Positions 35,304-55,157 of a stretch of 64,000 bases of DNA are shown one piece after another. Under the pieces are notes generated by a model that saw only the letters and a program-made list of their open reading frames with translations, was not told the origin of the DNA and ran no database searches. Origin of the DNA: a virus (lineage: Duplodnaviria; Caudoviricetes); IMG/VR virus record IMGVR_UViG_3300043811_000176, positions 756 to 64,755 of that record; one strand, written 5' to 3'. Position 1 is the first letter of the stretch; every line of letters begins with the position of its first letter. The translations under genes and the position numbers were made by a program.

Positions 35304-36566
35304 CTACGTCTTCAAGGGCTGCATGACCACGAAGTCAGGACGCGATCCCATCGTCAAGGTGATCGTGCTGGTGCCGATAACCGACCCCGTCCCAGCCAGC
35401 AATATCCCAGCGCCCGCTGCCATGACCGGGGTCGGGACGCCGTAGAACAGGCCGCCGTCATAAATGATCCCGGTTTGCGCCGCGACCGTGCCAGTGGCGC
35501 CAACCGCAAGCACGGCTTGCAGCGGCCGGGGCCGTGCAAACAGGCCGTAGTTCGCACTGCCGGCGCTCACCGCGCCGCTGACGAGATAAACCGGGGCGTT
35601 GGTGATTGTGCCGGTGATCGGCGTCGCCGGCCCTGCGGCCTGCGGATAGCCGCCAACGCTGGTCAGAAGCGCCGACACGGTGCCGCTCGTAAGCGTCGAA
35701 CCGCCGATCACACTGGTGTTGACGACCGTCTGGCACATAATCGCAGAAATCGTGCCTTGTGTGCCAGCGCCGGAGAGAGTGAGCGTGATGTTGTTTGGAG
35801 TCGAGAGCGGAGCGCCAGGATTGGCGCAGAGCACGCCACAGATCGAACCGGATCCGGTCGTCGAGAACGTGATCGTCGCAAGCGTGATGCCGGTCGCGAT
35901 ATTCGGATCGGTCGGATTCGGAAGACAAGTAACGGTGAAGGTCGTGCTGCCCTGATAACCGGCACCCGGATTGGTGAACGTGAAGCCGGAAACCGTGCCC
36001 GAAGCAATCGTGCAGTAACCGGTCGCCTGGATGCCGCCGACACCGTTCGCGTTGTTGGAAGGACCGGGGGGAGAGGGGAGAATGGCGATCGGAGCCACAC
36101 CGTACCCGGCCCCAGCGTTGGCCGTAACGATCGTCGTCGTCGAAACAAGAAGCTGCCCGCCGATGATCGGCGTCCACAACGAGCCGCCGCCGCCGGTCAC
36201 CGCAATCGAAGTCGTCGCCTGCACGTAGCCGCCAGCCCCGTAATTATTCACAAGGCCGCCGACCGGGCATCCAGTCAAGTTGGCGATGCGATAGCTGAAG
36301 CCGTCGCTCTGGAGATAGATCAACCCGCTGTCCCAAGCCGCGGTGGAGACAATCGTCCATGTCCCATTGACGGGATCGAGCATCTGAAGGACGCAGTACG
36401 AGCCGAGCCCGATCAGCCAGTCGCCGCGAGGGATCGGCAACTGATCGCCAGCCGCGAGTCCGACTTGGTTGTTGTTGAAATCGTAGGGCGCGTTAAACAG
36501 CTCGCTAGGATACAAATTTTGAGGTAATTGAAGGCCTACAGAAGGACCTGAAAGCGGGCCAGGCAT
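35304..36566 (-). CDS. Thr/Gly-rich capsid decoration/head-fibre protein
   Basis: Directly after MCP; GAGY repeats; GAGGAG SD. Confidence 0.65.
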   Translation of the reverse strand: MPGPLSGPSVGLQLPQNLYPSELFNAPYDFNNNQVGLAAGDQLPIPRGDWLIGLGSYCVLQMLDPVNGTWTIVSTAAWDSGLIYLQSDGFSYRIANLTGCPVGGLVNNYGAGGYVQATTSIAVTGGGGSLWTPIIGGQLLVSTTTIVTANAGAGYGVAPIAILPSPPGPSNNANGVGGIQATGYCTIASGTVSGFTFTNPGAGYQGSTTFTVTCLPNPTDPNIATGITLATITFSTTGSGSICGVLCANPGAPLSTPNNITLTLSGAGTQGTISAIMCQTVVNTSVIGGSTLTSGTVSALLTSVGGYPQAAGPATPITGTITNAPVYLVSGAVSAGSANYGLFARPRPLQAVLAVGATGTVAAQTGIIYDGGLFYGVPTPVMAAGAGILLAGTGSVIGTSTITLTMGSRPDFVVMQPLKT

Positions 36567-36579
36567 TTATCAGCTCCTC

Positions 36580-37626
36580 TTAGAAGGCGTTTCCGCCAAA
36601 ATTGACTGCAATCGCACCCGAAGACGACTTCGCGCTCACAACGTTGTAGCCAACGACCACGACGCCTTGCTGCCCGATCTGCCCCAAGGGCACGAGCGAG
36701 TAGAACCCGCTGAAATCGAACGCAGCGTCTTCGGATAGATACATCGCCGTGTACTTGACGTTGGGAAAGACGGCCGTTCCCTGCGGAACGAAGTGATCGG
36801 CAAAAATCGGGATGCCCGAAACATTCAGGTTCGGGAACGAAGTGCGTCGGCTGGTGTCGATCGAGTAATTTCCGCCCGGATCCACAAACGCCGTTTCGTT
36901 CGACACAAAGTCCTTGTTCAGGGTCGCGAAGTCGCCAGGGTTGAGAACCCCGTAAGTCGGCGCCTCGCCGCCAGCCGAATCGGTGATATTCGCCAGCATC
37001 GTGGCCATCGTCGCGCGGGTAAAGCCCGAGATCGACACCGACGTATAAGAAGTGTTCGTAGCCGTATTGATGTACTGGCCTTTGAAAGCCGAGTTGCCCG
37101 CTGCGTTGCGCGAGATACCGCCATAGCTTGGAAAATTCGTGCCGCTGTCGAAAGCGTCGAGGAAGCTGTTGGGGAAGAGCGAATTCGACGAGTTGTTGGT
37201 GTAAAGCAGTCGCGCCATGTTCTGGCGCGTCACCGCAAACACATCATTCATGCGCGCCTTGAGCAGGCTGATCTCGCGATCGGTCGCCTGGAGCACGGCT
37301 TCGCCGAAGGGAAGCGGAACGGGGACAACCCAGTAAGCCAGGTTCCACTGTCCGTTCTGCACGCCGGGGGTCACGTTGGGAGAGTTGAACCCGCCGCCGT
37401 AACCGGTGAATTGGCCTTGGACCATCGACTGTCCCTGCATTGGGATAGTGATCTGGTTCAAGCCGCCGGCTGCGCGTTGCGCATTCCCGGTAAGGTAGAA
37501 CAAAGAGGGACTGCCGAAATAAATCTGGACAAAGAGGCGGGGAACGAATGCCCTTCTCGTGGCGGCTGTCAGTTCAGTATAAAGGCTGCCGGCCGGGGGC
37601 GCGACACCGATTCCGGGGAGTGGGAT
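36580..37626 (-). CDS. major capsid protein (348 aa, ATC start)
   Basis: Follows scaffold; 'LNVSGIPIFADHFVP' HK97-like C-terminal motif; AGGAGG at 37637-37632, ATC at 37626, in-frame TAG at 37638-37636. Confidence 0.85.
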   Translation of the reverse strand: MPLPGIGVAPPAGSLYTELTAATRRAFVPRLFVQIYFGSPSLFYLTGNAQRAAGGLNQITIPMQGQSMVQGQFTGYGGGFNSPNVTPGVQNGQWNLAYWVVPVPLPFGEAVLQATDREISLLKARMNDVFAVTRQNMARLLYTNNSSNSLFPNSFLDAFDSGTNFPSYGGISRNAAGNSAFKGQYINTATNTSYTSVSISGFTRATMATMLANITDSAGGEAPTYGVLNPGDFATLNKDFVSNETAFVDPGGNYSIDTSRRTSFPNLNVSGIPIFADHFVPQGTAVFPNVKYTAMYLSEDAAFDFSGFYSLVPLGQIGQQGVVVVGYNVVSAKSSSGAIAVNFGGNAF

Positions 37627-37696
37627 GGCAGCCTCCTATTTAATTAACTGGTTGTGGGCGGACGATCGCCACCCTCCGATGCCCGGAAGTGGCATG

Positions 37697-38296
37697 TTAC
37701 CTTACTCCTCGCGAACTGCCTCGGACTTCGTTGATCGCCTCGCCGGCCATCTTGCGAAGCAAGGGTTCGTTCTCGCCTTTGGTATCGATCAGCTTCTTCC
37801 AATCGGCGTCCGTCTCATTGGCGAGCGCCTCGGAGAAATTCCAGCCGCCGGACCCGGTCGGCATCGCCGGCTCGATCGGCGGCATCTGGCTCTCGATCCA
37901 TTTGGCGGCGATTGCGACGTCGAGGATTCCCTTTTCCTCCATGACCGCCTTGACCTTGGCGATCCCGTCATCAGTCCACCGCTCGCGGCGAAGCTGGGCA
38001 AAACCTGCATCCTGCTCCGACCGGATGCGATCGAGCTTCACGTTCTTCTCGCGATCCGCATTCTCGGCCGCGCGCGCCGCGCGCTCATCGGCGAGGTCTT
38101 TTTCGAGCTTGGAAAAGCGATCCTCGGTCGGATCCGGTTTCTCCAGCTCTTTGACGGCAGGATCTTCCGGACGGACATCCTTGAGCGCTTCAAGCAGCTT
38201 GCGCTTCGCGCCCGGCGACCGCGTCATCGCAGTGACGGTCTCGCCCAGCCGGCGAAGCCGAAGCAATTCCTGCTCGTCGATCTCGACTTGCGGCAT
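37697..38296 (-). CDS. capsid scaffolding protein
   Basis: Charged coiled coil immediately upstream of MCP. Confidence 0.7.
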   Translation of the reverse strand: MPQVEIDEQELLRLRRLGETVTAMTRSPGAKRKLLEALKDVRPEDPAVKELEKPDPTEDRFSKLEKDLADERAARAAENADREKNVKLDRIRSEQDAGFAQLRRERWTDDGIAKVKAVMEEKGILDVAIAAKWIESQMPPIEPAMPTGSGGWNFSEALANETDADWKKLIDTKGENEPLLRKMAGEAINEVRGSSRGVR

Positions 38297-38475
38297 CACT
38301 TCGTCCCGATGCTGGTGCCGCCATTGGGCACATGACTGATCGTCAAGACGCCGGACTTCTGCTGCGCCGGCAGCGCGCTCTTGCGTCCCTGAAGCTCGAT
38401 CTCTTCCATTCCGACGCGCACGATCTGCTCGTCGGAAGTCGGAACGGATTTCGCCGGGTTGTGGAAGAGGTCCAT
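38296..38475 (-). CDS. 59-aa hypothetical protein (missed by ORF track)
   Basis: AAAGGA SD; MDLFHNPAKS..GTSIGTK; TGATG coupling to scaffold. Confidence 0.65.
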   Translation of the reverse strand: MDLFHNPAKSVPTSDEQIVRVGMEEIELQGRKSALPAQQKSGVLTISHVPNGGTSIGTK

Positions 38476-38487
38476 GAATCGAATCCT

Positions 38488-39048
38488 TTACATCGGGGTC
38501 GGCGGCTTTTGCGACGCGGGCGGGGCAGGCGGCGTTTCAGTCTTCGGGTAAAACGGTTTATCGACTGCTGCCTTGTCGGCTGCTGCCTTGTCGGCTGCTG
38601 CCTTGTCGGCTGCTGCCTTGTCGGCTGCTGCCTTGTCGGCTGCTGCCTTGTCGGCTGCTGCCTTGTCGGCTGCCGCCGAAACCGGCTCGATCGGCTTCGG
38701 AACCTTGTAAGGAGCCGCTCCAACCGCGCCCTCGCAAGCGCGGACTCGCCCTTCCAGTTCGACCAACTTCTCGGCATGCTCGTGCGGCAACTTGGTCGCA
38801 TCGTTGACCGACCGGCGAAACTCGACGCCGTCAGTCGTCAGCGCCGCAACATTACCCTCGACAGTCGTGAGCCGGTCGGCATTAATTCGCGCCTGCGAAA
38901 GCGCCTTGAGATGCGAATACTCCGCATGACTCATTCGATTGCGAAGATCTTCAAGCCCGGCAGCCAGGACGCGCGAATCCAGCTCGTGCACATCAACGCC
39001 AGGATCTTTCAATTTCGCAATCAAGGTATCGAGATCGGTGACGGGCAT
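38488..39048 (-). CDS. coiled-coil protein with ADKAA repeats
   Basis: GAGGAG SD; 186 aa. Confidence 0.7.
   Translation of the reverse strand: MPVTDLDTLIAKLKDPGVDVHELDSRVLAAGLEDLRNRMSHAEYSHLKALSQARINADRLTTVEGNVAALTTDGVEFRRSVNDATKLPHEHAEKLVELEGRVRACEGAVGAAPYKVPKPIEPVSAAADKAAADKAAADKAAADKAAADKAAADKAAADKAAVDKPFYPKTETPPAPPASQKPPTPM
38566..38670. repeat. perfect 15-bp tandem repeat x7
   Basis: (TGCTGCCTTGTCGGC)7, encodes ADKAA on the - strand. Confidence 0.95.
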
Positions 39049-39060
39049 GAGCCAGGCTCC

Positions 39061-39273
39061 TCAATAACCGTGCCCGCGACGCGGGCGAATGACGTTGACG
39101 ACGCTCTGAGCATCATTGGCTCGATCGGCGTAGCGCTCCTGCAGCGTCTGCGAGACGCGCACCGGGCCTTCATTACGAGGCGCTGGCATCGGACCCAGAA
39201 ACACTGTGTTGTCGGACGCGCGCTTGACATGCGCGTTGTCCGGCATCGGCGTCTTGTTTTCAAAAAGATTCAT
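39061..39273 (-). CDS. hypothetical protein
   Basis: ATGA-coupled in head operon. Confidence 0.6.
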   Translation of the reverse strand: MNLFENKTPMPDNAHVKRASDNTVFLGPMPAPRNEGPVRVSQTLQERYADRANDAQSVVNVIRPRRGHGY

Positions 39274-39656
39274 GCAGCCATTCCCGGCATCTGCGGCTGG
39301 CCCTGCTGCCCTTGAGGTTTCATGAGCTGCTGATTGGTCTGCGACGCCTGCATGTTCTTCATAGCCATCTGATCGATCGCATTGCGCTCGGACGCCTGCG
39401 TGTTCGACCCCGCCGGAACGTGCTTCAGTCCCATTTCAATCATTTTGTTGATGGTCTTGCCGAGGTCGGTCGCGCCGGCCATCGGCAAGAGATCCATCAG
39501 GTTTTTGATCACCAGCCCCAGGCGCTGCATCGCAGCCGCTTCATACCCCTTGTTGGGAGTCGGACCCGTCGCCGAGCTTACTCCCATCGGAGGGGATTGC
39601 GTCTGCTGCGGTCGGGGAAGCCCCGAGCCTGCAGGCATGGGCATGGCGTCAGGCAT
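39270..39656 (-). CDS. Met/Pro/Gln-rich head-module protein
   Basis: 128 aa, near the start of the head operon. Confidence 0.65.
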   Translation of the reverse strand: MPDAMPMPAGSGLPRPQQTQSPPMGVSSATGPTPNKGYEAAAMQRLGLVIKNLMDLLPMAGATDLGKTINKMIEMGLKHVPAGSNTQASERNAIDQMAMKNMQASQTNQQLMKPQGQQGQPQMPGMAA

Positions 39657-39657
39657 G

Positions 39658-39696
39658 TTACCGGCGGCCCTTGCGCCCCTTGCGTCGATTACGCAT
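39658..39696 (-). CDS. 12-aa Arg/Lys micropeptide MRNRRKGRKGRR
   Basis: CAGGAG SD, ATG at 39696, TAA 1 nt before next ATG. Confidence 0.55.
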   Translation of the reverse strand: MRNRRKGRKGRR

Positions 39697-39827
39697 CGGA
39701 AGTCTCCTGGTTAGGGGGTTGGTCCAAAACACGCGAATTATCCGACACTTGGCGAGAGTGGCCCACGTGGTTTGATAAGACCGAGGCGGGTTGCAACAGA
39801 TCAAAAAAGCGGCTAGGTTGCGACAAC

Positions 39828-40043
39828 ATGGTCGACGGAACGGCAACGCGCTGGCTCACGCCCAAGCAAATCTGCGCCGACATGGGCGTGCATTACGACG
39901 CCTTCAGGCGCATCCTGCGCCGCGGCGACGGCCCTAAATTCAAGCGCTATGGAGCGCGCTACCTGATCCGGAAGGACTGGTACGAAGAGTGGATCGAGAC
40001 GAATGATGTTAGACCGCAAAACACTAGAGCAGCAGCTGGCTGA
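39828..40043 (+). CDS. excisionase/AlpA-like HTH DNA-binding protein
   Basis: 'WLTPKQICADMGVHYDAFRRILRRGDGPKFKRYGARYLI'. Confidence 0.75.
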   Translation: MVDGTATRWLTPKQICADMGVHYDAFRRILRRGDGPKFKRYGARYLIRKDWYEEWIETNDVRPQNTRAAAG

Positions 40044-40236
40044 ATACGTTAAATTGACGCCAGCACCTGCCCCGGCACCGCCAGTTATCGTAAGTCCAAT
40101 GACGCGCGCCGAAGCAATCGAATGGATCAAGAGTATAGCGGCTGCGTTCAAGTCGGAATTTTGTTGCACCGACAAGCATCACCAAGAAGTAAACTTGGAA
40201 CTAGTCGAAGTTCTCAAATGGATCAAAGAGGAATAA
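40003..40236 (+). CDS. hypothetical protein
   Basis: In + strand cassette. Confidence 0.5.
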   Translation: MMLDRKTLEQQLAEYVKLTPAPAPAPPVIVSPMTRAEAIEWIKSIAAAFKSEFCCTDKHHQEVNLELVEVLKWIKEE

Positions 40237-40239
40237 AAG

Positions 40240-40638
40240 ATGTTCAGCCTGACAATCGTTTTCGGACCCGGCCCGATGGTGTGGACGTTGATGTTCAAGA
40301 CAGAAGAAAAACTAAAATTCGCCCTTGAAGAACTCGCCTTTCGATCTACAGACGGGCACGCTGGCCACAAAGAAGCATTTTGCGTTACGGACGATTTCGG
40401 ACAGAATTGCGCGATCCGAGATGCTCAAGTTCACGGCTTCATGTCCGAAAATCTCGACGAATCCAAGCATGCCCACATCGAGCGCGCACTTCACCAAGCC
40501 CGCACCAAGATCACCGCCGACAAGCTGGCCGAAGTCGATCCCGTCATCAAGGAAGCCGCTCGGCGCCAGCAAGGCGGGATGCCGATGATCCAGCCGATGC
40601 ACGCAATGCCGGGGCCGAACGGACGCTTTCCATCGTGA
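40240..40638 (+). CDS. hypothetical protein
   Basis: GAGG SD, 132 aa. Confidence 0.65.
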   Translation: MFSLTIVFGPGPMVWTLMFKTEEKLKFALEELAFRSTDGHAGHKEAFCVTDDFGQNCAIRDAQVHGFMSENLDESKHAHIERALHQARTKITADKLAEVDPVIKEAARRQQGGMPMIQPMHAMPGPNGRFPS

Positions 40639-40997
40639 ACCGGCGCGAATTCATTAAGGGAGCGCTTGCCGCGTGGGCAGCGCTCCCGATTGCCAAGATC
40701 ACGCCCTCTATCGCGATGATAAGTCCCAACTATCTGGTCGAGCTGACAGCAATAACCCGAAAGGCATTTTTGCCGAGGCTATCGCAATACTGCACGCACA
40801 CCATCCTTTACCACACAGAAGACGTGCCGCTGGAATTCAACGGATTCCAAATGCTTCTACCGACCTCCACATCCGACATCAACGGCGCCCGCCTCCCAAC
40901 TGCTTCGCCAGAACCTTCTCGGCCGCCTCCGGATTCTCCGACATCAGCTGCCGAATCATCGCCTGCTTCTCCTTCGCCGCTTCGCGGTTCTGATTGA
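40635..40997 (+). CDS. twin-arginine-leader protein containing two MCP-like segments
   Basis: GTGA coupling; 'MNRREFIKGALAAW', 'ELTAITRKAFLPRL', 'TILYHTEDVPLEFNGFQMLLP'. Confidence 0.7.
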   Translation: MNRREFIKGALAAWAALPIAKITPSIAMISPNYLVELTAITRKAFLPRLSQYCTHTILYHTEDVPLEFNGFQMLLPTSTSDINGARLPTASPEPSRPPPDSPTSAAESSPASPSPLRGSD

Positions 40998-42624
40998 GCG
41001 CATCCTGCACATTCGGAAACGGCATGTTATTGAGAACGTACTCAGCTTGCACCAAACCTTTGGAATGCGCCGCCATGATCAATTGCGCGTTCTCGTCCGA
41101 GAAGATCGGCGATGAAGAATGCGAATCCACGGTGACACGCCAATCCTCGGGCATGTCGGTCAGCTTGAATTCCGTCTCGCGTACATCCTGAATCGTATCG
41201 GCCTTGGTCCAGTAGACCGAATCGTCTTTGGCTTCTTTGATTTCCAACGCGAGATCGCCCGCAACTGCGCAATTGCGCTCGGCGATCAATGCGCGATCGC
41301 GCAGCGTCGGCGACCCTGTCTTCATGAGAGTTCCGGCATGCGCTCCCGCTCGCACCCCCTGCTCGCCTTGTCCCTGCATGATCGGCGGAAAGCCCGCGTT
41401 GATATCCATCTGCTCGATCACGAACTTGATTACCGGCAACAATTCCGGCGGGAAACTAGGCGTCATGTCCTCGATCTTGGAATTAGAATCGAGGTTGCCG
41501 AACCCGGCCATTCGCATCTGGCCGTACAGTTCATCGGTGATACGATTCTCGCCGACAAAGAAAAGGATCTTGTCGACCTGGACCCCGATCAAACGGCGCA
41601 TGTCGTCCAGCAAACCAGCCAGGAGCGACTGCGGCTCAGCCATGTTGACGAGTTCAGACTTGCCCCAGAACCATCCAGAAGTCTCGTTGACCTGTATCGA
41701 CCGATACGGTTGGCAATGCGACATAAGCCCAAGAAGATTGGAATGCTTGAGCACCTTCCCGCCCATGGCGGGAGGCGAAATCAAAATATCCGGCTCGATC
41801 AACTGAATCGTGACGTAATCATCCTGCCCCTGCACCCACAACTCGTGCATAGTCACCGTCTCGGCAGCGACTTGCGGCCCCATGATCTGGAACGAACCCC
41901 CGCTCGACACGTTAACCATCCCTCCCGGAAGCGTCCCCGAGAATCCGTTGGGATTATTAGTCTGGAGCTGACTGGTCGAAAGCACCTGGTGAAAGAACGA
42001 CTGGTTCGCATCCTGCGTCTGCCCCGGTGCAGCGTGCGCGCGGATGCGCTCGAACAGCTTGACGGCGTTATCCTGATGCCAAATGCGGCGCCAAACTTCA
42101 GGAAGCGTCAACGATGTCGTCTCGCAGAGCGCTTCCTGGAGCGAAATGTCGGACTCGGATTCCTTGTAGACTCCAAAATTCCACGGCATGACCAACTTGG
42201 CGTATTGCTTGGAAACTTCACCTTTGCCCTCGGATTGCGCCCACTGCTTGAGTCCGCACCAGCCGTATTTGAGGGCCTCGAACACGCCGCGACCAAAGAG
42301 GATATCGGTCGACGATCGGTCCCACTGACGTGTCAACTGCAAAGCAGCGACACGAGCCTGATCCAAGTTCTTCTTGGGATACATCCGATCGAAATCGACC
42401 GAGAATTTGAGTTCGACCGGCGAGAAAATGTGCGCCGCCGCGCGCGCTAAGTGCGGATCGATCTTGTTGATCAATGCCTTCTGACCGTCATAACGACCAG
42501 TTTCGGCGATCTGGTTGAGGCTCATATAATAAGCCGAACGCGATGCTGCCGACACCCGGCACTGCTCCACCATCTGCCGAGCGAAGGTGCGAAGCGCGTT
42601 GAGTTCGGTCGGGACTTCGATCAT
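40879..42624 (-). CDS. portal protein
   Basis: 581 aa between terminase and scaffold/MCP; 'WFWGKSEL', 'MQGQGEQGVRAG'. Confidence 0.8.
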   Translation of the reverse strand: MIEVPTELNALRTFARQMVEQCRVSAASRSAYYMSLNQIAETGRYDGQKALINKIDPHLARAAAHIFSPVELKFSVDFDRMYPKKNLDQARVAALQLTRQWDRSSTDILFGRGVFEALKYGWCGLKQWAQSEGKGEVSKQYAKLVMPWNFGVYKESESDISLQEALCETTSLTLPEVWRRIWHQDNAVKLFERIRAHAAPGQTQDANQSFFHQVLSTSQLQTNNPNGFSGTLPGGMVNVSSGGSFQIMGPQVAAETVTMHELWVQGQDDYVTIQLIEPDILISPPAMGGKVLKHSNLLGLMSHCQPYRSIQVNETSGWFWGKSELVNMAEPQSLLAGLLDDMRRLIGVQVDKILFFVGENRITDELYGQMRMAGFGNLDSNSKIEDMTPSFPPELLPVIKFVIEQMDINAGFPPIMQGQGEQGVRAGAHAGTLMKTGSPTLRDRALIAERNCAVAGDLALEIKEAKDDSVYWTKADTIQDVRETEFKLTDMPEDWRVTVDSHSSSPIFSDENAQLIMAAHSKGLVQAEYVLNNMPFPNVQDALNQNREAAKEKQAMIRQLMSENPEAAEKVLAKQLGGGRR

Positions 42625-42625
42625 T

Positions 42626-43225
42626 TTATACTCGGGGCCTGTAATTCGCGGCAAACATCTCATTCGCCGGTCGACTGACGGTCGCGTCAGGCCCCATGCG
42701 CTCACCGTGCGCCTGATTGAGCGTGCGTTGCATCTTGGCGCCCACATTAGGCATAATTGAGCCTTTAACCCCCTCTGCAATGTGCCCGCTCGCTACGCCG
42801 GCTCCAAAATGCAGCCCCGCTTCGCCTCCACCTGCACCAAAACCGAACATGGAATTGGGATTCACCGCGGCGATGGCATCCATCTGCCGGGTCACGTCGT
42901 TATCGACCGGTATCGCGGCAATGTCCCCCTGCTTCATATTGTCGCGGAGGTTGGTGATTTTCAAGCCCGACATCTCGGACGGCGAGCAGCCCGCCTGCTC
43001 GGCGGCAGCATACATCCGGTCTTCGGACGACTTTTCCATCGCCCTGTAGACGCCGTCGCTACAACGTGTTGAAAAGCTTAGAATATTCGGTACGACGACA
43101 TCGGCGTCATCGCGATCGTGGCCAACATAGGCGCCGCACTCGGGGCAATCCCTGGGGTAGGGCTCCGAGACCGCGAGCCAGCGAAACTTGGTCTTGCACA
43201 TAGGGCAGCGGATGACGACGGCCAT
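42626..43225 (-). CDS. Zn-ribbon-containing hypothetical protein
   Basis: CPMC..CPEC. Confidence 0.65.
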   Translation of the reverse strand: MAVVIRCPMCKTKFRWLAVSEPYPRDCPECGAYVGHDRDDADVVVPNILSFSTRCSDGVYRAMEKSSEDRMYAAAEQAGCSPSEMSGLKITNLRDNMKQGDIAAIPVDNDVTRQMDAIAAVNPNSMFGFGAGGGEAGLHFGAGVASGHIAEGVKGSIMPNVGAKMQRTLNQAHGERMGPDATVSRPANEMFAANYRPRV

Positions 43226-43437
43226 CAATACCTCCGAATCAACACTTCCTCGATTGCTGCCCGACGCTTCACAAGCATGATTTTCAGCTCCTCATCTACA
43301 CTTGGCGGCACCTTCGTATCCCCCGAAAGCCAACGTCGCACCGTACGATCGCTGACCGATAGCGCCTTCGCCAACTCAGTCTGCCAACGAACCCCAAATA
43401 GCAACTCTCCGAATTTGCGCAGACGATTCGACACCAT
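43225..43437 (-). CDS. HTH transcriptional regulator
   Basis: 'WQTELAKALSVSDRTVRRWLSG'. Confidence 0.8.
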   Translation of the reverse strand: MVSNRLRKFGELLFGVRWQTELAKALSVSDRTVRRWLSGDTKVPPSVDEELKIMLVKRRAAIEEVLIRRY

Positions 43438-43453
43438 CGACGCCTCCGACTTG

Positions 43454-43687
43454 TTACAGGCCGCCGAAGCCAGTAAATTGACCCTGCACCATCAGTGAGT
43501 TTACCACAACTTTATCCATATGAGTCTGGCGTGGAGACCCGTTCCACAGTTCTTCCCGAGTTTGCACCAAAGTGCCGACTTTAGCACCGCCAATTTCTTG
43601 CGACACCCATGGCGGATTCTTAACAACCTCTTGCACCGCTACCGGCACCGCAGTAAGCCAACCGAACAACGTTCTACGATTCAACAC
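43454..43687 (-). CDS. twin-arginine-leader protein ending in an MCP-like segment
   Basis: 'MLNRRTLFGWLTAVPVAV'..'MVQGQFTGFGGL'; GGAGG SD. Confidence 0.7.
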   Translation of the reverse strand: MLNRRTLFGWLTAVPVAVQEVVKNPPWVSQEIGGAKVGTLVQTREELWNGSPRQTHMDKVVVNSLMVQGQFTGFGGL

Positions 43688-43688
43688 C

Positions 43689-45620
43689 TCAATACCTCCG
43701 ACCTTGTCCGTAACGCCATGCTTGCCGATTCATCGCCACGGCCTCCTGCCGGCGCGCAGCGCCCTTGGCCGCGAAGAAATTGTCAAGGTTATTCTGATTG
43801 AAAAGCGCCACCTGGTCAAGAATCGACAGACGCTGTCGGGCTTCCTCCGCGGCGCGCGTGCGGCGCTGCCCGACGAGCCCTTGCCGGATCTTGGTCGCCC
43901 AGTAGTAATTGGCGAGCGCCATCGCCACCGCGCGATCGTCACGAAGCGAGGTCGGAGCGCCAATCGAATCTCCATCGCGCGAGATCGATCGCAATTCCTC
44001 GATCAGGTCGAGCGAGCGGATACGAAGCTTGCCGGCCGAGGCGATATCCCGGAGCTGCTCCATGATCGTGATCTTCAAACGCGTATTCGTGAGCCAGTGA
44101 TAATTGTATCCGGCGCCCATCGAATCCGGACGCGTGTATATGTAAGTCCGTACATTCCTGAAAATGTTTGCGAGTCCCTGCTCCTCTACGGATTTGCGAG
44201 CGCTCGGCGAGTTCTCGATATAGAACTTCAAAGCTTTGATCTCGTTGAAGACGGCGGTTCCAGGACCGTTGAGTTCGAGGATGTATCGGCACTCGGCCCG
44301 AGGACTGGCGCCGTACCAACCCATGAGTGCGGCCAAGGTCCATGCGAGGTGTCTTGTAGTTTGAAGGGGCCAGGCGTACTCGGCGACTTGATCAACTCCA
44401 TCGGCATAACATCGGAGCACCTCGATAGCCGAGTTGCAGTTATTCTCGTTTTCTCCGTAGGCGGGATCGAGTGCAAAGACATATACTCCCTCCGAATTAG
44501 GCTCCTCCCACACCTTCAACTCCGTCGAAGGGAGGTTGTTGGCGCGATAAACCTTCATGTCGACGAATTCCTCGCCGGCCACGAAAAGATAAGGCTGGAA
44601 CTTCTTGTTGACGTACTTGTTGGTGATGTCGGTCAGGTTGTTGGAAGCGAAGAAAACCGAGCCGGTTTGCTGGAAGCTCTCTTCCTCCGTCCAGGGCTGC
44701 TCCTGAATTCGCAGCGCATTACCTTCAAAATTAAAATCGCTGCCCTCCTGATCCGCCTGCCCGAGGCTGGGATTCATCTTGCGGCGATACCAGGCAAGCT
44801 GCTCGATATCGACATCAACGTCGTACCGTTCCTTCACCTCCTTGATCTTGGCTGCTTCCTTGGCGGTCGGAGGATCCTTGGCGTAAAGATGATAATCGAT
44901 ATCGGCAGGCGTGATGCGCTGCGTACCCTTGCTCCACCAACCGAGGAAAATGCACTTACAGTGCATGGGATCGCTGCGCGCATCCTTCCAAAGCGTCCAC
45001 CAGCGATTAAAACCGCGTGCCGTCGATTCGTAGATGTAAAGCCGGTCAGGGTTGATGTCGGAGAGCGAGTTCTCGAAGGCTTCGAGACCTTCGTCGTTAT
45101 CCCAGGAACAAAGCTCGGACAAGTGCGCCACGGACAGACCGACCGATCGCCCGAGCGTTCCCGACGTCTTGGACTTCTTGACGCCGGCCGACATGAACAG
45201 AACCTTGGAATCGTTGGCAAGCGCCAAGCCGGTGCGGTTGTTCGAAGTGATGGCAGGAAAGCGAAGCGCGGGCGGAAGGTCGTTGATCATTACCTCCAGC
45301 TCGGCGCGGGACTCGGACTTATTCGAATCCGTGTCGAAGACGATCGCACCCTTTAGCCCCTTGTGCACGCCAAGGAAAAATATGATCAGAGCGCGGATGA
45401 TCGTCGAGATGCCGAGCTGACGGGACTTGAGAATATAAATCTTGTGAATGCCGGCTTCGAGAGCGTCAAAAATCTGGGTGATGACATCGATCTGTCCCTG
45501 GTACAGGTTGTCGCCAAGGCAAATCTGCCCCGCGTCCTTCGAATTAACGAAGCAGCTGCGAAGGTAAATGTAGAACGCAGTCTCGACGCGGTCTCGTTTA
45601 AGTGCTGACCAGCCTGCCAT
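43689..45620 (-). CDS. terL: terminase large subunit
   Basis: Walker A 'LKSRQLGIST', Walker B 'HLSEL', 'ESTARG', nuclease 'ALDPAYG'..'DDRAVA'. Confidence 0.92.
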   Translation of the reverse strand: MAGWSALKRDRVETAFYIYLRSCFVNSKDAGQICLGDNLYQGQIDVITQIFDALEAGIHKIYILKSRQLGISTIIRALIIFFLGVHKGLKGAIVFDTDSNKSESRAELEVMINDLPPALRFPAITSNNRTGLALANDSKVLFMSAGVKKSKTSGTLGRSVGLSVAHLSELCSWDNDEGLEAFENSLSDINPDRLYIYESTARGFNRWWTLWKDARSDPMHCKCIFLGWWSKGTQRITPADIDYHLYAKDPPTAKEAAKIKEVKERYDVDVDIEQLAWYRRKMNPSLGQADQEGSDFNFEGNALRIQEQPWTEEESFQQTGSVFFASNNLTDITNKYVNKKFQPYLFVAGEEFVDMKVYRANNLPSTELKVWEEPNSEGVYVFALDPAYGENENNCNSAIEVLRCYADGVDQVAEYAWPLQTTRHLAWTLAALMGWYGASPRAECRYILELNGPGTAVFNEIKALKFYIENSPSARKSVEEQGLANIFRNVRTYIYTRPDSMGAGYNYHWLTNTRLKITIMEQLRDIASAGKLRIRSLDLIEELRSISRDGDSIGAPTSLRDDRAVAMALANYYWATKIRQGLVGQRRTRAAEEARQRLSILDQVALFNQNNLDNFFAAKGAARRQEAVAMNRQAWRYGQGRRY

Positions 45621-45637
45621 TCCGGCAGGTTAGCAGG

Positions 45638-45904
45638 TCAACGGAACCCCTGCAACCGACGCTGCTGGTCCTTGAGTTCCTCCAATTGAAGCTGGAGCTT
45701 CGTCTGGATCGTCGAATAGAACTGGGCGAGATCGCCCTTGGGGTCCACGACCAGGAACTCGATCGGATCGACACTACCGGGAGGTACGATCACGCACGCG
45801 CCGCCGAATTCCGCGGGATTGCGCTCGATGCGGTCGGCCATGGCGCGGAACCGATCCGCCAGCTTTCGGTCGAGGGCCTCGATGAGGGGTTGGCCGTCGT
45901 TCAT
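45638..45904 (-). CDS. hypothetical protein
   Basis: Directly upstream of terL. Confidence 0.6.
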   Translation of the reverse strand: MNDGQPLIEALDRKLADRFRAMADRIERNPAEFGGACVIVPPGSVDPIEFLVVDPKGDLAQFYSTIQTKLQLQLEELKDQQRRLQGFR

Positions 45905-46206
45905 GTCAACCTCTCTTTGTGCTTCTCGACGACCTTCGCGAGCTTCTTCTGAACTTGCTCGTCGAGCTTCGCGCCTTCAATATCGAAGCATCGAGCCAAG
46001 AGTTCCAGGTACACGCGAATATCGGCAAGCTCGTCCCTGATTTCTTCCGTGAGATCGGCGCCGTCCCGCCACCGCTTCTTAATCATGTTAGCGAGTTCGC
46101 CGGCCTCTCCGCACAAGGCCAGTGCTAGAAATCGTTCGTCCTCGGAGGCATATGAAGGAAACAGGTGTTTAGTCATGCGCTCGTGCAACGAGTAGATATC
46201 GATCAT
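45901..46206 (-). CDS. MazG-like NTP pyrophosphohydrolase
   Basis: 'LCGEAGELANMIKK..DELADIRVY'; may start further up at 46308. Confidence 0.85.
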   Translation of the reverse strand: MIDIYSLHERMTKHLFPSYASEDERFLALALCGEAGELANMIKKRWRDGADLTEEIRDELADIRVYLELLARCFDIEGAKLDEQVQKKLAKVVEKHKERLT

Positions 46207-54833: not shown

Positions 54834-55015
54834 TTTATATGCTCTTCCGGTAGAGGCGACGCAACTTCTTTCTTCTCCTTGATCTCCAACCACTGCTTGA
54901 GGATCATCTGGATCAGCCCAGTGAGCGAATAGCGCTCGCGATCGGCGAATTTGCGCAGACGCTTCTTGTCGTGCTCGGTCAGTCGGATCGATGTCGGGTA
55001 TTCGCGACGGGACAA
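54830..55015 (-). CDS. ribbon-helix-helix regulator
   Basis: 'PTSIRLTEHDKKRLRKFADRERYSLTGLIQMILKQWL'; TTG after GGGAG. Confidence 0.75.
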   Translation of the reverse strand: MSRREYPTSIRLTEHDKKRLRKFADRERYSLTGLIQMILKQWLEIKEKKEVASPLPEEHIK

Positions 55016-55025
55016 GGCGGCTCCC

Positions 55026-55080
55026 AAGAAAAAAGGCGGCCGGACTGCGGTGGGGGACACGGAGGTTGGCCCGGCCGCCT
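55026..55080 (-). terminator. intrinsic terminator/attenuator or sRNA 3' end
   Basis: GGCGGCCGG..CCGGCCGCC followed by TTTTTT. Confidence 0.6.
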
Positions 55081-55128
55081 TGGGACAGAACCCTCTCGGT
55101 CGAGGCCGAGCCGGAGGGCCGAGGGAAA

Positions 55129-55157
55129 TGTAGTGCCGGCGACTACAAGATGTCAAG
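55129..55157 (-). promoter_or_regulatory. promoter with TGTAGT-N7-ACTACA operator
   Basis: TTGACA-N17-CTACAT; palindrome at 55129-55147. Confidence 0.6.

What the first reader, a model, noticed from the sequence alone, without database searches (positions are those of the whole stretch)
43454..43687. Second twin-arginine mini-protein ending in a different MCP segment
Seen: MLNRRTLFGWLTAVPVAV leader; C-terminus MVQGQFTGFGG versus MCP 68-78 MVQGQFTGYGG (10/11 aa; 6 synonymous and 1 non-synonymous codon differences against 37393-37425). It sits right after terL. Two independent genes with the same leader-plus-MCP-fragment design, covering non-overlapping MCP parts, make chance unlikely.
Basis: partly seen in the sequence, partly recalled or inferred. 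Interest (0 to 1): 0.78.

Follow-up and report, generated by a model that had tools for sequence, protein, structure and literature searches.

The report
Leader-tagged capsid-fragment mini-protein in phage
A small gene placed right after the terminase gene of an uncultured soil phage ends in an 11-residue copy of a loop of the phage's capsid protein, and it is one case of a widespread, apparently undescribed habit of phages to fuse a signal-like leader to a piece of their own capsid protein.

Summary
ORF 43454-43687(-) has 77 codons and starts 1 nt after the terL stop. It ends in MVQGQFTGFGG, against MCP 68-78 MVQGQFTGYGG; 0 of 300 shuffled MCPs scored as high.

The 6 synonymous differences are not evidence of selection here. 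The 33 nt are 32/33 identical to the MCP genes of two related phages, so the end is a short DNA patch from another family member's MCP.

The ORF lies with a small HTH gene on a ~480-bp cassette. The cassette is 96-100% identical to one relative while its flanks are ~75% identical, and it sits at a hot spot for insertions.

The 'leader plus MCP fragment' design is real and recurs:
- One small-protein family (1264 hits) joins a conserved RR-leader to a copy of the MCP N-arm (hhalign E 1e-13).
- Leader proteins in phages with four other MCP families (PHROG 'major head protein') carry a piece of their own MCP.

Membership of mini2 in that family was not shown (E 0.12), and curated Tat models do not recognise its leader. 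The function is unknown.

My best reading is a young accessory gene of this design class. The main rival is a functionless recombination mosaic.

The parts
43454..43687 (-). mini2 ORF: 77 codons plus stop, GTG start 1 nt after the terL stop, GGAGG 7 nt upstream
   Evidence: Homologs P0001-P0004, L003, L014, L085
43631..43687 (-). RR-leader, codons 1-19: MLNRRTLFGWLTAVPVAVQ
   Evidence: Not recognised by TAT HMMs. Aligns to the canonical leader only at E 0.12
43460..43492 (-). 33-nt patch coding MVQGQFTGFGG. It is 32/33 identical to the MCP genes of L050/L056 and 26/33 to the window's own MCP
   Evidence: An MCP-type contig with 32/33 identity was also laid from run X7
43516..43554 (.). Second short patch inside mini2 (codons 45-57). 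It is shared at 34-35/39 with contigs of unrelated flanks in four soil runs
   Evidence: records 2, 4, 8, 12. Not found in 24 relatives' genomes
43225..43437 (-). 70-aa HTH gene (hth70), the second gene of the cassette
   Evidence: phrog_12690 5e-15 and phrog_3626 2e-13. Pfam HTH_3, YdaS and Aca2 hits are below their cut-offs. Polymorphism 6 synonymous: 2 non-synonymous
43228..43706 (-). Mobile accessory cassette (mini2 + hth70). It is 96-100% identical to L002 while the flanks are about 75% identical
43689..43700 (-). Left copy of the 12-nt direct repeat CGGAGGTATTGA (end of terL, codes RRY*)
43225..43236 (-). Right copy of the 12-nt direct repeat CGGAGGTATTGA (end of hth70, codes RRY*, SD of the next gene)
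43689..45620 (-). Large terminase
   Evidence: phrog_675 4e-5. Conserved at 45-69% identity in relatives
36580..37626 (-). Major capsid protein, HK97 fold. Start codon ATC at 37626
37393..37425 (-). MCP residues 68-78 (MVQGQFTGYGG), the putative E-loop tip
37534..37575 (-). MCP residues 18-31 (ELTAATRRAFVPRL), the N-arm. This is the segment copied in mini1 and in the canonical family
40635..40997 (+). mini1: an RR-leader ORF with an MCP N-arm-like segment. Its 3' end runs into the antisense of the portal gene

Best explanation
SHOWN. The ORF is the first gene of a ~480-bp accessory cassette (mini2 plus a 70-aa HTH gene). The cassette sits at the terL/next-gene junction of a ~65-kb uncultured soil phage, and this junction is a hot spot for small inserts in the phage family. 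The last 11 residues are encoded by a 33-nt patch of MCP-coding DNA. The patch came from the MCP gene of a different member of the family, not from the window's own MCP.

SHOWN. The architecture 'RR-leader followed by a fragment of the phage's own capsid protein' is a recurrent natural design. It is found in a large unnamed family and with at least five MCP families that do not resemble one another in sequence.

INFERRED. mini2 is a young, fast-evolving gene of this design class, and it carries the E-loop tip instead of the usual N-arm.

INFERRED MECHANISM, not tested. The hydrophobic RR-leader takes the protein to the inner membrane or an export machine. The copied piece is an element by which capsid subunits touch each other (the N-arm and E-loop roles are established for HK97-fold capsids). 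It lets the mini-protein occupy the site that this element normally binds, on a capsid or scaffold protein or on a host protein that recognises the capsid protein. It would thereby compete with the real capsid protein.
For: ORF, start and SD.

Cassette and hot spot:
- The cassette is 96-100% identical to L002, against about 75% for the flanks, and is bounded by the 12-nt direct repeat CGGAGGTATTGA.
- In 31 of 53 loci that hold both genes, terL lies within 50 nt of the next core gene. The other 22 hold assorted inserts.

The patch:
- 32/33 nt identical to the L050/L056 MCP genes, blastn-short E 2e-10, never extending beyond 33 nt in 81 MCP genes.

Not chance: 0 of 300 shuffles reach the score; hhalign E 9.3e-7.

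The frame is kept:
- 7 distinct variants are all open, with in-frame indels.
- Frame 0 has the best codon score of the six frames.
- In three further soil haplotypes, codons 44-77 show 3 synonymous and 0 non-synonymous changes.
- P0003 keeps the motif although both its flanks differ.

Recurrence of the design:
- mini1.
- L063 79-aa ORF.
- G021 83-aa and G002 89-aa ORFs.
- A family with 1264 proteins at E <= 0.01 among 1690 candidates, whose residues 48-86 align to MCP 13-48 with probability 98%, E 1e-13.
- Leader proteins that match their own genome's major head protein in phrog_283 (E 2e-15), phrog_334 (1.5e-6), phrog_212 (1e-11 to 3e-15) and phrog_9953 (5e-13) phages.

Synteny hint: the HTH gene after the G021 family member is homologous to hth70 (28% identity over 60 aa, E 4e-4).
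Against: - Homology of the mini2 leader to the canonical leader is not shown. hhalign gives E 0.12 and probability 0.5%. A leader-only HMM scores mini2 at E 8.5. There is no DNA similarity beyond 10 nt.
- Codons 1-43 evolve without purifying selection. Three soil haplotypes show 9 non-synonymous and 1 synonymous change. The window against L003 shows 20 non-synonymous and 4 synonymous changes, with differences by codon position 15/7/11.
- 3 of the 7 distinct variants (P0004/L003, L014, L085) lack the MCP-like end. Their tails are read-through into whatever lies downstream.
- A second patch of 39 nt inside the ORF is shared with an unrelated gene of other soil contigs. By my hand reading of the loose ends, that gene appears to read it in another frame. 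This is what a random patchwork would give.
- The family is tiny. Only 3 true clusters were found among 1.84 billion representatives.
- Topology problem: an N-terminal RR-leader would put the tail outside the cytoplasm, away from capsid assembly.
- In an unselected sample of 10 near-complete genomes with a leader protein, only 2 tails matched a large protein of the same genome by BLASTP (1 MCP, 1 connector).
Confidence: 0.45

Rival explanations
1. Recombination mosaic without capsid-related function. The ORF is a chance-open patchwork created when the cassette was assembled at a hot spot. HNH endonuclease genes occupy this junction and the one upstream of the MCP gene in some relatives, so breaks there are plausible. 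On this reading the MCP patch is filler DNA, captured from a co-infecting relative, that happened to land in frame. The protein, if made, is a neutral or generic small membrane peptide.
For: - The 33-nt patch has sharp borders and is 32/33 identical to another phage's MCP gene.
- A second 39-nt patch is shared with an unrelated gene.
- The cassette is bounded by direct repeats, and the junction sequence with its SD occurs three times.
- HNH endonuclease genes sit at the terL junction in L073 and before the MCP in L002/L004. Inserts of 490-840 nt lie before the MCP in 14 of 80 loci.
- In L085 the tail of the homolog includes a duplicated terL 3' end read in another frame.
- There is no purifying selection on codons 1-43.
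- 3 of 7 variants lack the motif.
Against: - The same design recurs many times with strong statistics and with co-variation across MCP families. An MCP piece behind an RR-leader is therefore not a one-off accident.
- The motif is kept in P0003 although both flanks changed.
- Codons 44-77 show only synonymous polymorphisms, 3 to 0. The numbers are small.
- For mini1 and the L063 ORF, the MCP-like segment differs from all sampled MCP genes mostly at synonymous sites. This argues for protein-level constraint in the design class.
Confidence: 0.35
2. Anti-defence cassette of the acr-aca type. A small, fast-evolving effector (mini2) sits upstream of a conserved HTH regulator (hth70). The MCP-like end would serve as a decoy or antagonist for a host immune sensor that recognises the capsid protein. 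This overlaps with the best explanation and specifies the partner.
For: - Arrangement and evolutionary rates fit. hth70 shows 6 synonymous and 2 non-synonymous changes; mini2 shows 4 synonymous and 9 non-synonymous.
- hth70 gives weak hits to Aca2/YdiL, YdaS and HTH_3.
- The cassette is mobile between phages.
- Bacterial sensors that bind phage MCPs exist, for example Avs7 and Dsr1 (PMC13581612; I read the abstract and passages).
Against: - The Aca2 hit is below Pfam's cut-off (20 against 23.8 bits).
- PADLOC gives nothing useful.
- No promoter of its own or terminator was found.
- A hydrophobic leader is unusual for known Acr proteins (from my own knowledge).
- An hth70-type gene lies within 3 kb of the leader gene in only 4 of 80 loci.
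Confidence: 0.1
3. Not a gene. The stretch would be an untranslated spacer of the cassette, and the open frame would be incidental in GC-rich DNA.
For: - dN/dS is about 1 or higher in the N-terminal half.
- GC3 is 0.53 against about 0.70-0.76 in core genes, and the codon score is -0.06.
- Long spurious ORFs abound on both strands here.
Against: - A GGAGG lies 7 nt before a GTG placed 1 nt after the terL stop.
- The frame is open in all 7 variants despite 20-40% divergence and indels, which are in frame.
- It is the best of the six frames by codon score.
- Gene callers of the source databases predicted the protein independently.
Confidence: 0.08

Closest known systems
Morons (accessory genes inserted between core genes of phage late operons)
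   Same: Present in a few relatives and absent from most, at a junction where 31 of 53 loci have no insert. Composition differs from the core genes (GC3 0.53 against 0.70). It is exchanged horizontally.
   Different: No promoter of its own or terminator was found; it looks translationally coupled to terL. Classical morons are not built from pieces of the phage's own capsid gene.
acr-aca operons (small anti-defence gene followed by an HTH regulator)
   Same: A small, fast-evolving ORFan sits directly upstream of a small conserved HTH gene, on a mobile cassette inside the structural module.
   Different: The HTH does not reach the Aca2 cut-off. The effector has a hydrophobic RR-leader. No defence target is known.
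Twin-arginine (Tat) signal peptides and 'hitch-hiker' export
   Same: RR followed by a hydrophobic stretch. The canonical family has RRxhh, an Ala-rich core and V-R-A before a conserved SLMPVK.
   Different: Curated models rarely reach significance: PF10518 hits 9 of 44 members at E <= 0.1, TIGR01409 hits 4 of 70 at E <= 0.05, and neither hits mini2. The canonical leader is far more conserved than signal peptides usually are (from my own knowledge).
Capsid-targeting tags: T4 internal-protein targeting sequences and encapsulin cargo-loading peptides (recalled from my own knowledge)
   Same: A short peptide confers affinity for an HK97-fold shell or its scaffold, and is attached to variable cargo.
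   Different: Here the short peptide is a copy of the shell protein itself. The conserved part is a hydrophobic leader. Nothing shows that the protein is packaged.
Capsid-derived peptides that trigger immunity: T4 Gol peptide with Lit, and MCP sensors such as Avs7 and Dsr1
   Same: A short stretch of the MCP is the biologically recognised unit.
   Different: Those peptides are part of the MCP and are sensed by the host. Here a separate phage gene encodes the stretch. Gol/Lit is recalled from my own knowledge; for Avs7/Dsr1 I read passages of PMC13581612.

Membership tests
Tat (twin-arginine) signal peptide | Recognised by the curated models Pfam PF10518 and TIGR01409 | tested here: not met
   mini2 gets no hit even at E <= 10. 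mini1 is sub-threshold: 16.8 against 22.7 bits, and 14.7 against 16.7 bits.
Tat (twin-arginine) signal peptide | S/T-R-R-x-F-L-K motif, h-region, and an A-x-A cleavage site | tested here: inconclusive
   The sequence reads N-R-R-T-L-F-G, followed by a 13-residue hydrophobic stretch. It then has V-A-V-Q instead of A-x-A.
Tat (twin-arginine) signal peptide | Tat-dependent export | not testable with these tools
   Needs reporter fusions in wild-type and tatC-deleted hosts.
Canonical 'RR-leader + MCP N-arm' small-protein family (unnamed; alignment A9) | Leader xRRxLITGLxSLVAAPAIVRAxSLMPVK | tested here: not met
   hhalign of A2 against A9 aligns only residues 1-20, with E 0.12 and probability 0.5%. 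The leader HMM gives E 8.5.
Canonical 'RR-leader + MCP N-arm' small-protein family (unnamed; alignment A9) | C-terminal part homologous to a segment of the cognate MCP | tested here: met
   mini2 family against MCP: E 9.3e-7. The segment is MCP 66-78, not the N-arm (13-48) that the family carries.
Canonical 'RR-leader + MCP N-arm' small-protein family (unnamed; alignment A9) | Size of 70-130 aa, accessory and sporadic distribution | tested here: met
   mini2 has 77 aa. It is present in 4 of the 53 loci that hold the junction, plus L085.
acr-aca operon | The downstream HTH belongs to a known Aca family | tested here: not met
   Aca2_YdiL scores 20 bits against a cut-off of 23.8.
Moron | Inserted between core genes and absent from close relatives | tested here: met
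Moron | Own promoter and terminator | tested here: not met
   There is one promoter-like site, inside terL, and no terminator-like site in 43000-44000.
HK97-fold major capsid protein (for 36580-37626) | Fold similarity to solved capsid proteins | tested here: met
   Foldseek gives 86 matches at E <= 0.001, best 7f38_A at 5e-7. The model is of low confidence, mean pLDDT 56.9.

The most novel reading that the evidence does not exclude
Tailed phages of soil bacteria carry a widespread, so far unnamed class of accessory proteins. In these, a strongly conserved RR-leader is fused to a copy of a contact element of the phage's own head protein: the MCP N-arm, a C-terminal part of the MCP, the E-loop tip in mini2, or the N-terminus of a connector protein. 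The fragment tracks the MCP family of the carrier phage. This points to a mimicry device. It could capture, mislocalise or block whatever binds that element, such as capsid or scaffold subunits of competing phages, or host sensors of the capsid protein. On this reading mini2 is a newly minted member, made by pasting 33 nt of a relative's MCP gene behind such a leader.
Probability: 0.35. Interest if true: 0.9.

Novelty: categorically new. Interest (0 to 1): 0.78.

Why it matters
If the design is functional, it is a new way for phages to use their own capsid sequence. A short 'self' peptide on a targeting leader could act in competition between phages, in control of assembly, or as a decoy for immune sensors that recognise capsid proteins.

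It also gives a handle on more than a thousand small 'hypothetical' proteins. It offers a directly testable pair, the mini-protein and its cognate MCP, in several unrelated capsid families.

For annotation, it warns that a synonymous-rich match between two genes of one phage can come from patch transfer out of a related phage rather than from selection.

Tried and rejected
- Binding. Complex prediction of the MCP (alignment A3) with mini2 residues 19-77 gave no verdict: score 0.00, controls not run. This says nothing either way.
- Expression. The look-up of sequencing runs listed no RNA holder. All four laid runs were DNA contigs.
- Annotation of mini2. Pfam, PHROGs, NCBIfam and PADLOC gave nothing. 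ESM Atlas gave only sub-threshold viral 'hypothetical' clusters, best 0.86.
- RNA elements. Rfam found no family in 36000-46000 at E <= 0.1.
- CRISPR-spacer idea for the 33-nt patch. Rejected: the flanks are not repeats.
- Translational bypass at the duplicated MCP start. Considered and dropped: no stop follows the take-off site, and a remnant of an endonuclease insert is the simpler reading.
- The contig bearing P0003. I could not obtain it. The DNA of the most divergent motif-bearing homolog therefore remains unseen.
- Source of the 39-nt patch. Not found in 24 relatives' genomes.
- mini1 in IMG/VR. No relative found.
- Cultured relatives. The INPHARED phage collection has no relative of the canonical family member P0042.
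- PHROG scan of 70 leader proteins. Only 4 hits, of which 3 were to 'major head protein' families. Short fragments are mostly below HMM sensitivity.
- G036 (L148 group). The contig is a fragment, and no MCP was found on it.
- Host. MAG labels of the 10 genome-contig hits are mixed: Acidobacteriota, Alphaproteobacteria, Patescibacteria and a deltaproteobacterium. I draw no host from them.
- Literature. Four searches found no paper on leader-plus-capsid-fragment proteins. Supplementary files were not consulted.

Full report
1. THE OBSERVATION

ORF 43454..43687(-) exists as described. It has 77 codons and a GTG start 1 nt after the terL stop, with GGAGG 7 nt upstream. The N-terminus reads MLNRRTLFGWLTAVPVAV and the C-terminus reads MVQGQFTGFGGL.

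The presumed MCP (36580..) has a conserved N-terminus that reaches beyond the first ATG/GTG/TTG. All 81 family members start at M/V/L/I-PLPGIG, and in the window that start is an ATC at 37626. This makes MVQGQFTGYGG residues 68-78, at 37393-37425. The codon comparison gives 6 synonymous and 1 non-synonymous difference.

The match is not chance. Of 300 shuffled MCPs, 0 reach the 35.4 bits of this hit and 1 reaches the 34.6 bits of the 40635 ORF. No shuffle gives a second hit above 26.9 bits. The profile-profile E-value is 9.3e-7.

2. CONTEXT

The window is nearly the whole of a 64,755-nt virus record. Pfam and PHROGs recognise almost nothing in the head module.

IMG/VR holds at least 117 relatives of the MCP, and I fetched 80 loci at 70-93% identity. 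The core order in these loci is: terL, a zinc-ribbon protein, portal, p132 on the other strand, p128, scaffold-like proteins, MCP.

The MCP assignment is now supported by fold. The AF2 model has mean pLDDT 56.9 and gives 86 Foldseek matches at E <= 0.001 to capsid and capsid-like shell proteins.

Residues 68-78 lie between strands 58-64 and 89-103, ahead of the long helix 116-140. In the HK97 fold this is the E-loop. This placement is an inference, because pLDDT there is below 50.

3. A MOBILE CASSETTE AT A HOT SPOT

In 31 of 53 loci that hold both genes, terL lies within 50 nt of the zinc-ribbon gene. The other 22 carry assorted small inserts, including small membrane peptides and, in L073, an HNH endonuclease.

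mini2 and the 70-aa HTH gene behind it form a ~480-bp block (43228-43706). The block is 96-100% identical to L002, while the flanking terL and zinc-ribbon genes are about 75% identical. The block is bounded by the 12-nt direct repeat CGGAGGTATTGA, so both terL and the HTH gene end in RRY*. The SD-containing junction occurs three times.

Two further junctions are also variable: portal/p132, where mini1 sits, and p200b/MCP. At the p200b/MCP junction, 14 of 80 loci carry a 490-840-nt insert. In L002 that insert encodes a 255-aa HNH endonuclease.

4. WHERE THE MCP-LIKE END COMES FROM

The 33 nt at 43460-43492 are 32/33 identical to the MCP genes of L050 and L056, and 31/33 identical to five others. 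They are only 26/33 identical to the window's own MCP. The match never extends beyond the 33 nt in any of 81 MCP genes. A contig with the same 32/33 match in MCP context was also laid from soil run X7.

They say nothing about selection on the mini-protein.

A second short patch, 43516-43554, is shared at 34-35/39 with contigs of unrelated flanks in all four soil runs laid. It is absent from 24 relatives' genomes. From my hand reading of the loose ends, the source gene seems to use another frame. The 3' half of the ORF is thus a patchwork.

5. IS IT A GENE?

Evidence for:
- There is a strong SD and a coupled start.
- All 7 distinct variants are open, with in-frame indels.
- It has the best codon score of the six frames.
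- In three further haplotypes, codons 44-77 show 3 synonymous and 0 non-synonymous changes. The neighbouring HTH gene shows 6 synonymous and 2 non-synonymous.

Evidence against:
- Codons 1-43 show 9 non-synonymous and 1 synonymous change. Against L003 they show 20 non-synonymous and 4 synonymous.
- GC3 is low.
- The family is tiny. Four hits came back from 1.84 billion representatives, and one of them was spurious.

Of the 7 variants, 4 end in the MCP motif (window, P0001, P0002, P0003). Three do not (P0004/L003, L014, L085). In L085 the tail runs through a duplicated terL end.

6. THE DESIGN RECURS

This is the main result.

- mini1 (40635+) has homologs P0006 and P0007. It aligns colinearly with MCP 17-73 (E 2e-4).
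- Scanning relatives' loci for small ORFs with the MCP N-arm motif turned up a 79-aa ORF in L063, with an RR-leader.
- Scanning 30 relatives' genomes with a degenerate DNA pattern turned up an 83-aa ORF in G021 and an 89-aa ORF in G002. Each has an RR-leader followed by the N-arm motif. The G002 ORF matches MCP residues 14-36 at 17 of 23 positions.
- A search with the G021 and G002 ORFs found 1264 proteins at E <= 0.01 among 1690 candidates. All are 'hypothetical' and none has a Pfam domain.
- The consensus of this family is xSRRSLITGLISLVAAPAIVRAxSLMPVK ... LYGDLxxVTRKAFVPRLFVQxY.
- The C-terminal half of the family is homologous to MCP 13-48, with probability 98% and E 1e-13.

An IMG/VR scan found 216 relatives, and I fetched 80 loci. 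Sixty-eight of them have a leader ORF. The C-terminal parts are very diverse, and some loci carry 2-3 paralogs.

In phages with other capsid families, the tail of the leader protein matches the major head protein of the same genome:
- phrog_283 type: the N-terminus, E about 2e-15, in 4 genomes. In two of them the small gene sits directly upstream of the MCP gene.
- phrog_334 type: the N-terminus, E 1.5e-6.
- phrog_212 type: residues about 259-340, E 1e-11 to 3e-15, in 3 genomes.
- phrog_9953 type: the N-terminus, E 5e-13.

One tail matches the N-terminus of a connector protein, phrog_332, at E 1.6e-4.

In an unselected sample of 10 near-complete genomes, 2 tails matched a large protein of the same genome by BLASTP and 8 did not. 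The design therefore characterises a subset of the leader superfamily, or else the rest is beyond BLASTP sensitivity.

For mini1 and the L063 ORF, the MCP-like segment differs from every sampled MCP gene mainly at synonymous sites: 13-15 of 42 nt with 3 amino-acid changes, and 3-5 of 24 nt with none. This argues for protein-level constraint in the class.

7. IS MINI2 A MEMBER?

This is not shown. Its leader aligns with the canonical one over residues 1-20 at 45% identity, but the E-value is 0.12. The leader HMM gives E 8.5. DNA similarity is limited to 10 nt.

One positional hint exists. The HTH gene that follows the G021 family member is homologous to hth70 (E 4e-4). However, an hth70-type gene is near the leader gene in only 4 of 80 loci.

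The window lacks a canonical member at the site where G002 has one. By family HMM, mini1 is the window's only member (E 1.6e-4).

mini2 and mini1 are not a fixed pair, since L002 has only mini2.

8. TAT OR NOT

mini2 is not recognised by PF10518 or TIGR01409. mini1 is sub-threshold. Of the canonical family, 9 of 44 members (Pfam, E <= 0.1) and 4 of 70 (TIGR, E <= 0.05) give weak hits.

The features are signal-like: RR, an Ala-rich core, and V-R-A. The very high conservation of AAPAIVRA-xSLMPVK suggests a specific partner rather than a generic signal. That last point is an inference.

9. MECHANISM

Shown:
- mini2 sits on a mobile accessory cassette.
- Its MCP-like end is a transferred patch.
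- The design recurs and co-varies with the carrier's MCP family.

Inferred:
- The copied pieces (N-arm, E-loop) are the extended elements through which HK97-fold subunits contact neighbours and scaffold. This is established knowledge of the fold.
- A mini-protein carrying one of them could therefore occupy its binding site.
- The leader would tether or export it.

Candidate roles are interference with the capsid assembly of competing relatives, control of the phage's own assembly, or a decoy or antagonist for host sensors of the MCP. Such sensors exist (PMC13581612, abstract and passages read).

The topology expected of an N-terminal RR-leader puts the tail outside the cytoplasm. That is an unsolved difficulty for all cytoplasmic roles.

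The main rival is that mini2 in particular is a neutral mosaic.

10. WHAT IS KNOWN

No Pfam, PHROG, NCBIfam or PADLOC family covers mini2 or the canonical family. No cultured phage in INPHARED has a relative of the canonical family member P0042. Four full-text searches found no description of the design.

The closest concepts are morons, acr-aca cassettes, Tat signals, capsid-targeting tags and capsid-derived immune triggers. None has a leader fused to a copy of the phage's own capsid segment.

11. LIMITS

- There are no expression data.
- There is no binding verdict.
- The host is unknown.
- The most informative homolog, P0003, is known only as protein.
- Polymorphism counts are small.
- The frame of the second patch rests on a hand reading.
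- Supplementary files of papers were not consulted.

Noticed in passing
window 37624-37695 (-): The MCP gene starts with ATC (37626-37624) behind an AGGAGG. About 69 nt upstream, overlapping the p200b stop, an ATG (37695) opens a 19-codon ORF. Its first 7 codons (MPLPGIG) duplicate the MCP start. This looks like the remnant of the insert that in L002/L004 carries a 255-aa HNH endonuclease between p200b and the MCP.
   Followed up: partly
L100-L179 (IMG/VR loci); proteins P0008-P0127: There is a large unnamed superfamily of 70-185-aa phage proteins. They share the leader xRRxFLTGLxSLxAAPAIVRAxSLMPVK and have very diverse C-terminal parts. Some genomes carry 2-3 paralogs (L115, L118, L129, L140, L145, L151).
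   Followed up: partly
L217:11559-11831(-) and L217:3394-5127(-) (genome G047): The tail of a leader protein resembles residues 16-52 of a 578-aa connector protein (phrog_332, 2e-102) of the same genome. Fragments of head proteins other than the MCP may therefore be used too.
   Followed up: partly
window 43516-43554: A 39-nt stretch inside the ORF recurs at 34-35/39 in contigs with unrelated flanks in four soil metagenome runs, at higher depth than the phage. The source gene is not identified.
   Followed up: partly
L032 and L038, 3818-4854: The terL match is split in two (query 1-509 and 511-639) by about 1 kb. This could be an intein, an intron or an endonuclease insert inside the terminase gene of these relatives.
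   Followed up: no
L073:5082-5597(+): A 171-aa HNH-type endonuclease gene sits in the terL/zinc-ribbon junction, the same site that holds the mini2 cassette in the window.
   Followed up: no
L085:1839-2126(+): This mini2-family variant has a tail that contains a GSGYTS-type motif, as found in fibre-like proteins of relatives (E 4e-4 to L040). The tail then runs through a duplicated copy of the terL 3' end read in another frame.
   Followed up: partly
window 38558-38740 (-): The scaffold-like 186-aa protein (38488-39048) contains a run of AADK repeats. The opposite strand shows matching simple repeats.
   Followed up: no
window 55007-55152 compared with L100:3001-3879: The close relative G002 has a canonical leader gene and a GcrA-like regulator after a C5-methyltransferase-like gene. 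The window has only about 145 nt at that place.
   Followed up: partly
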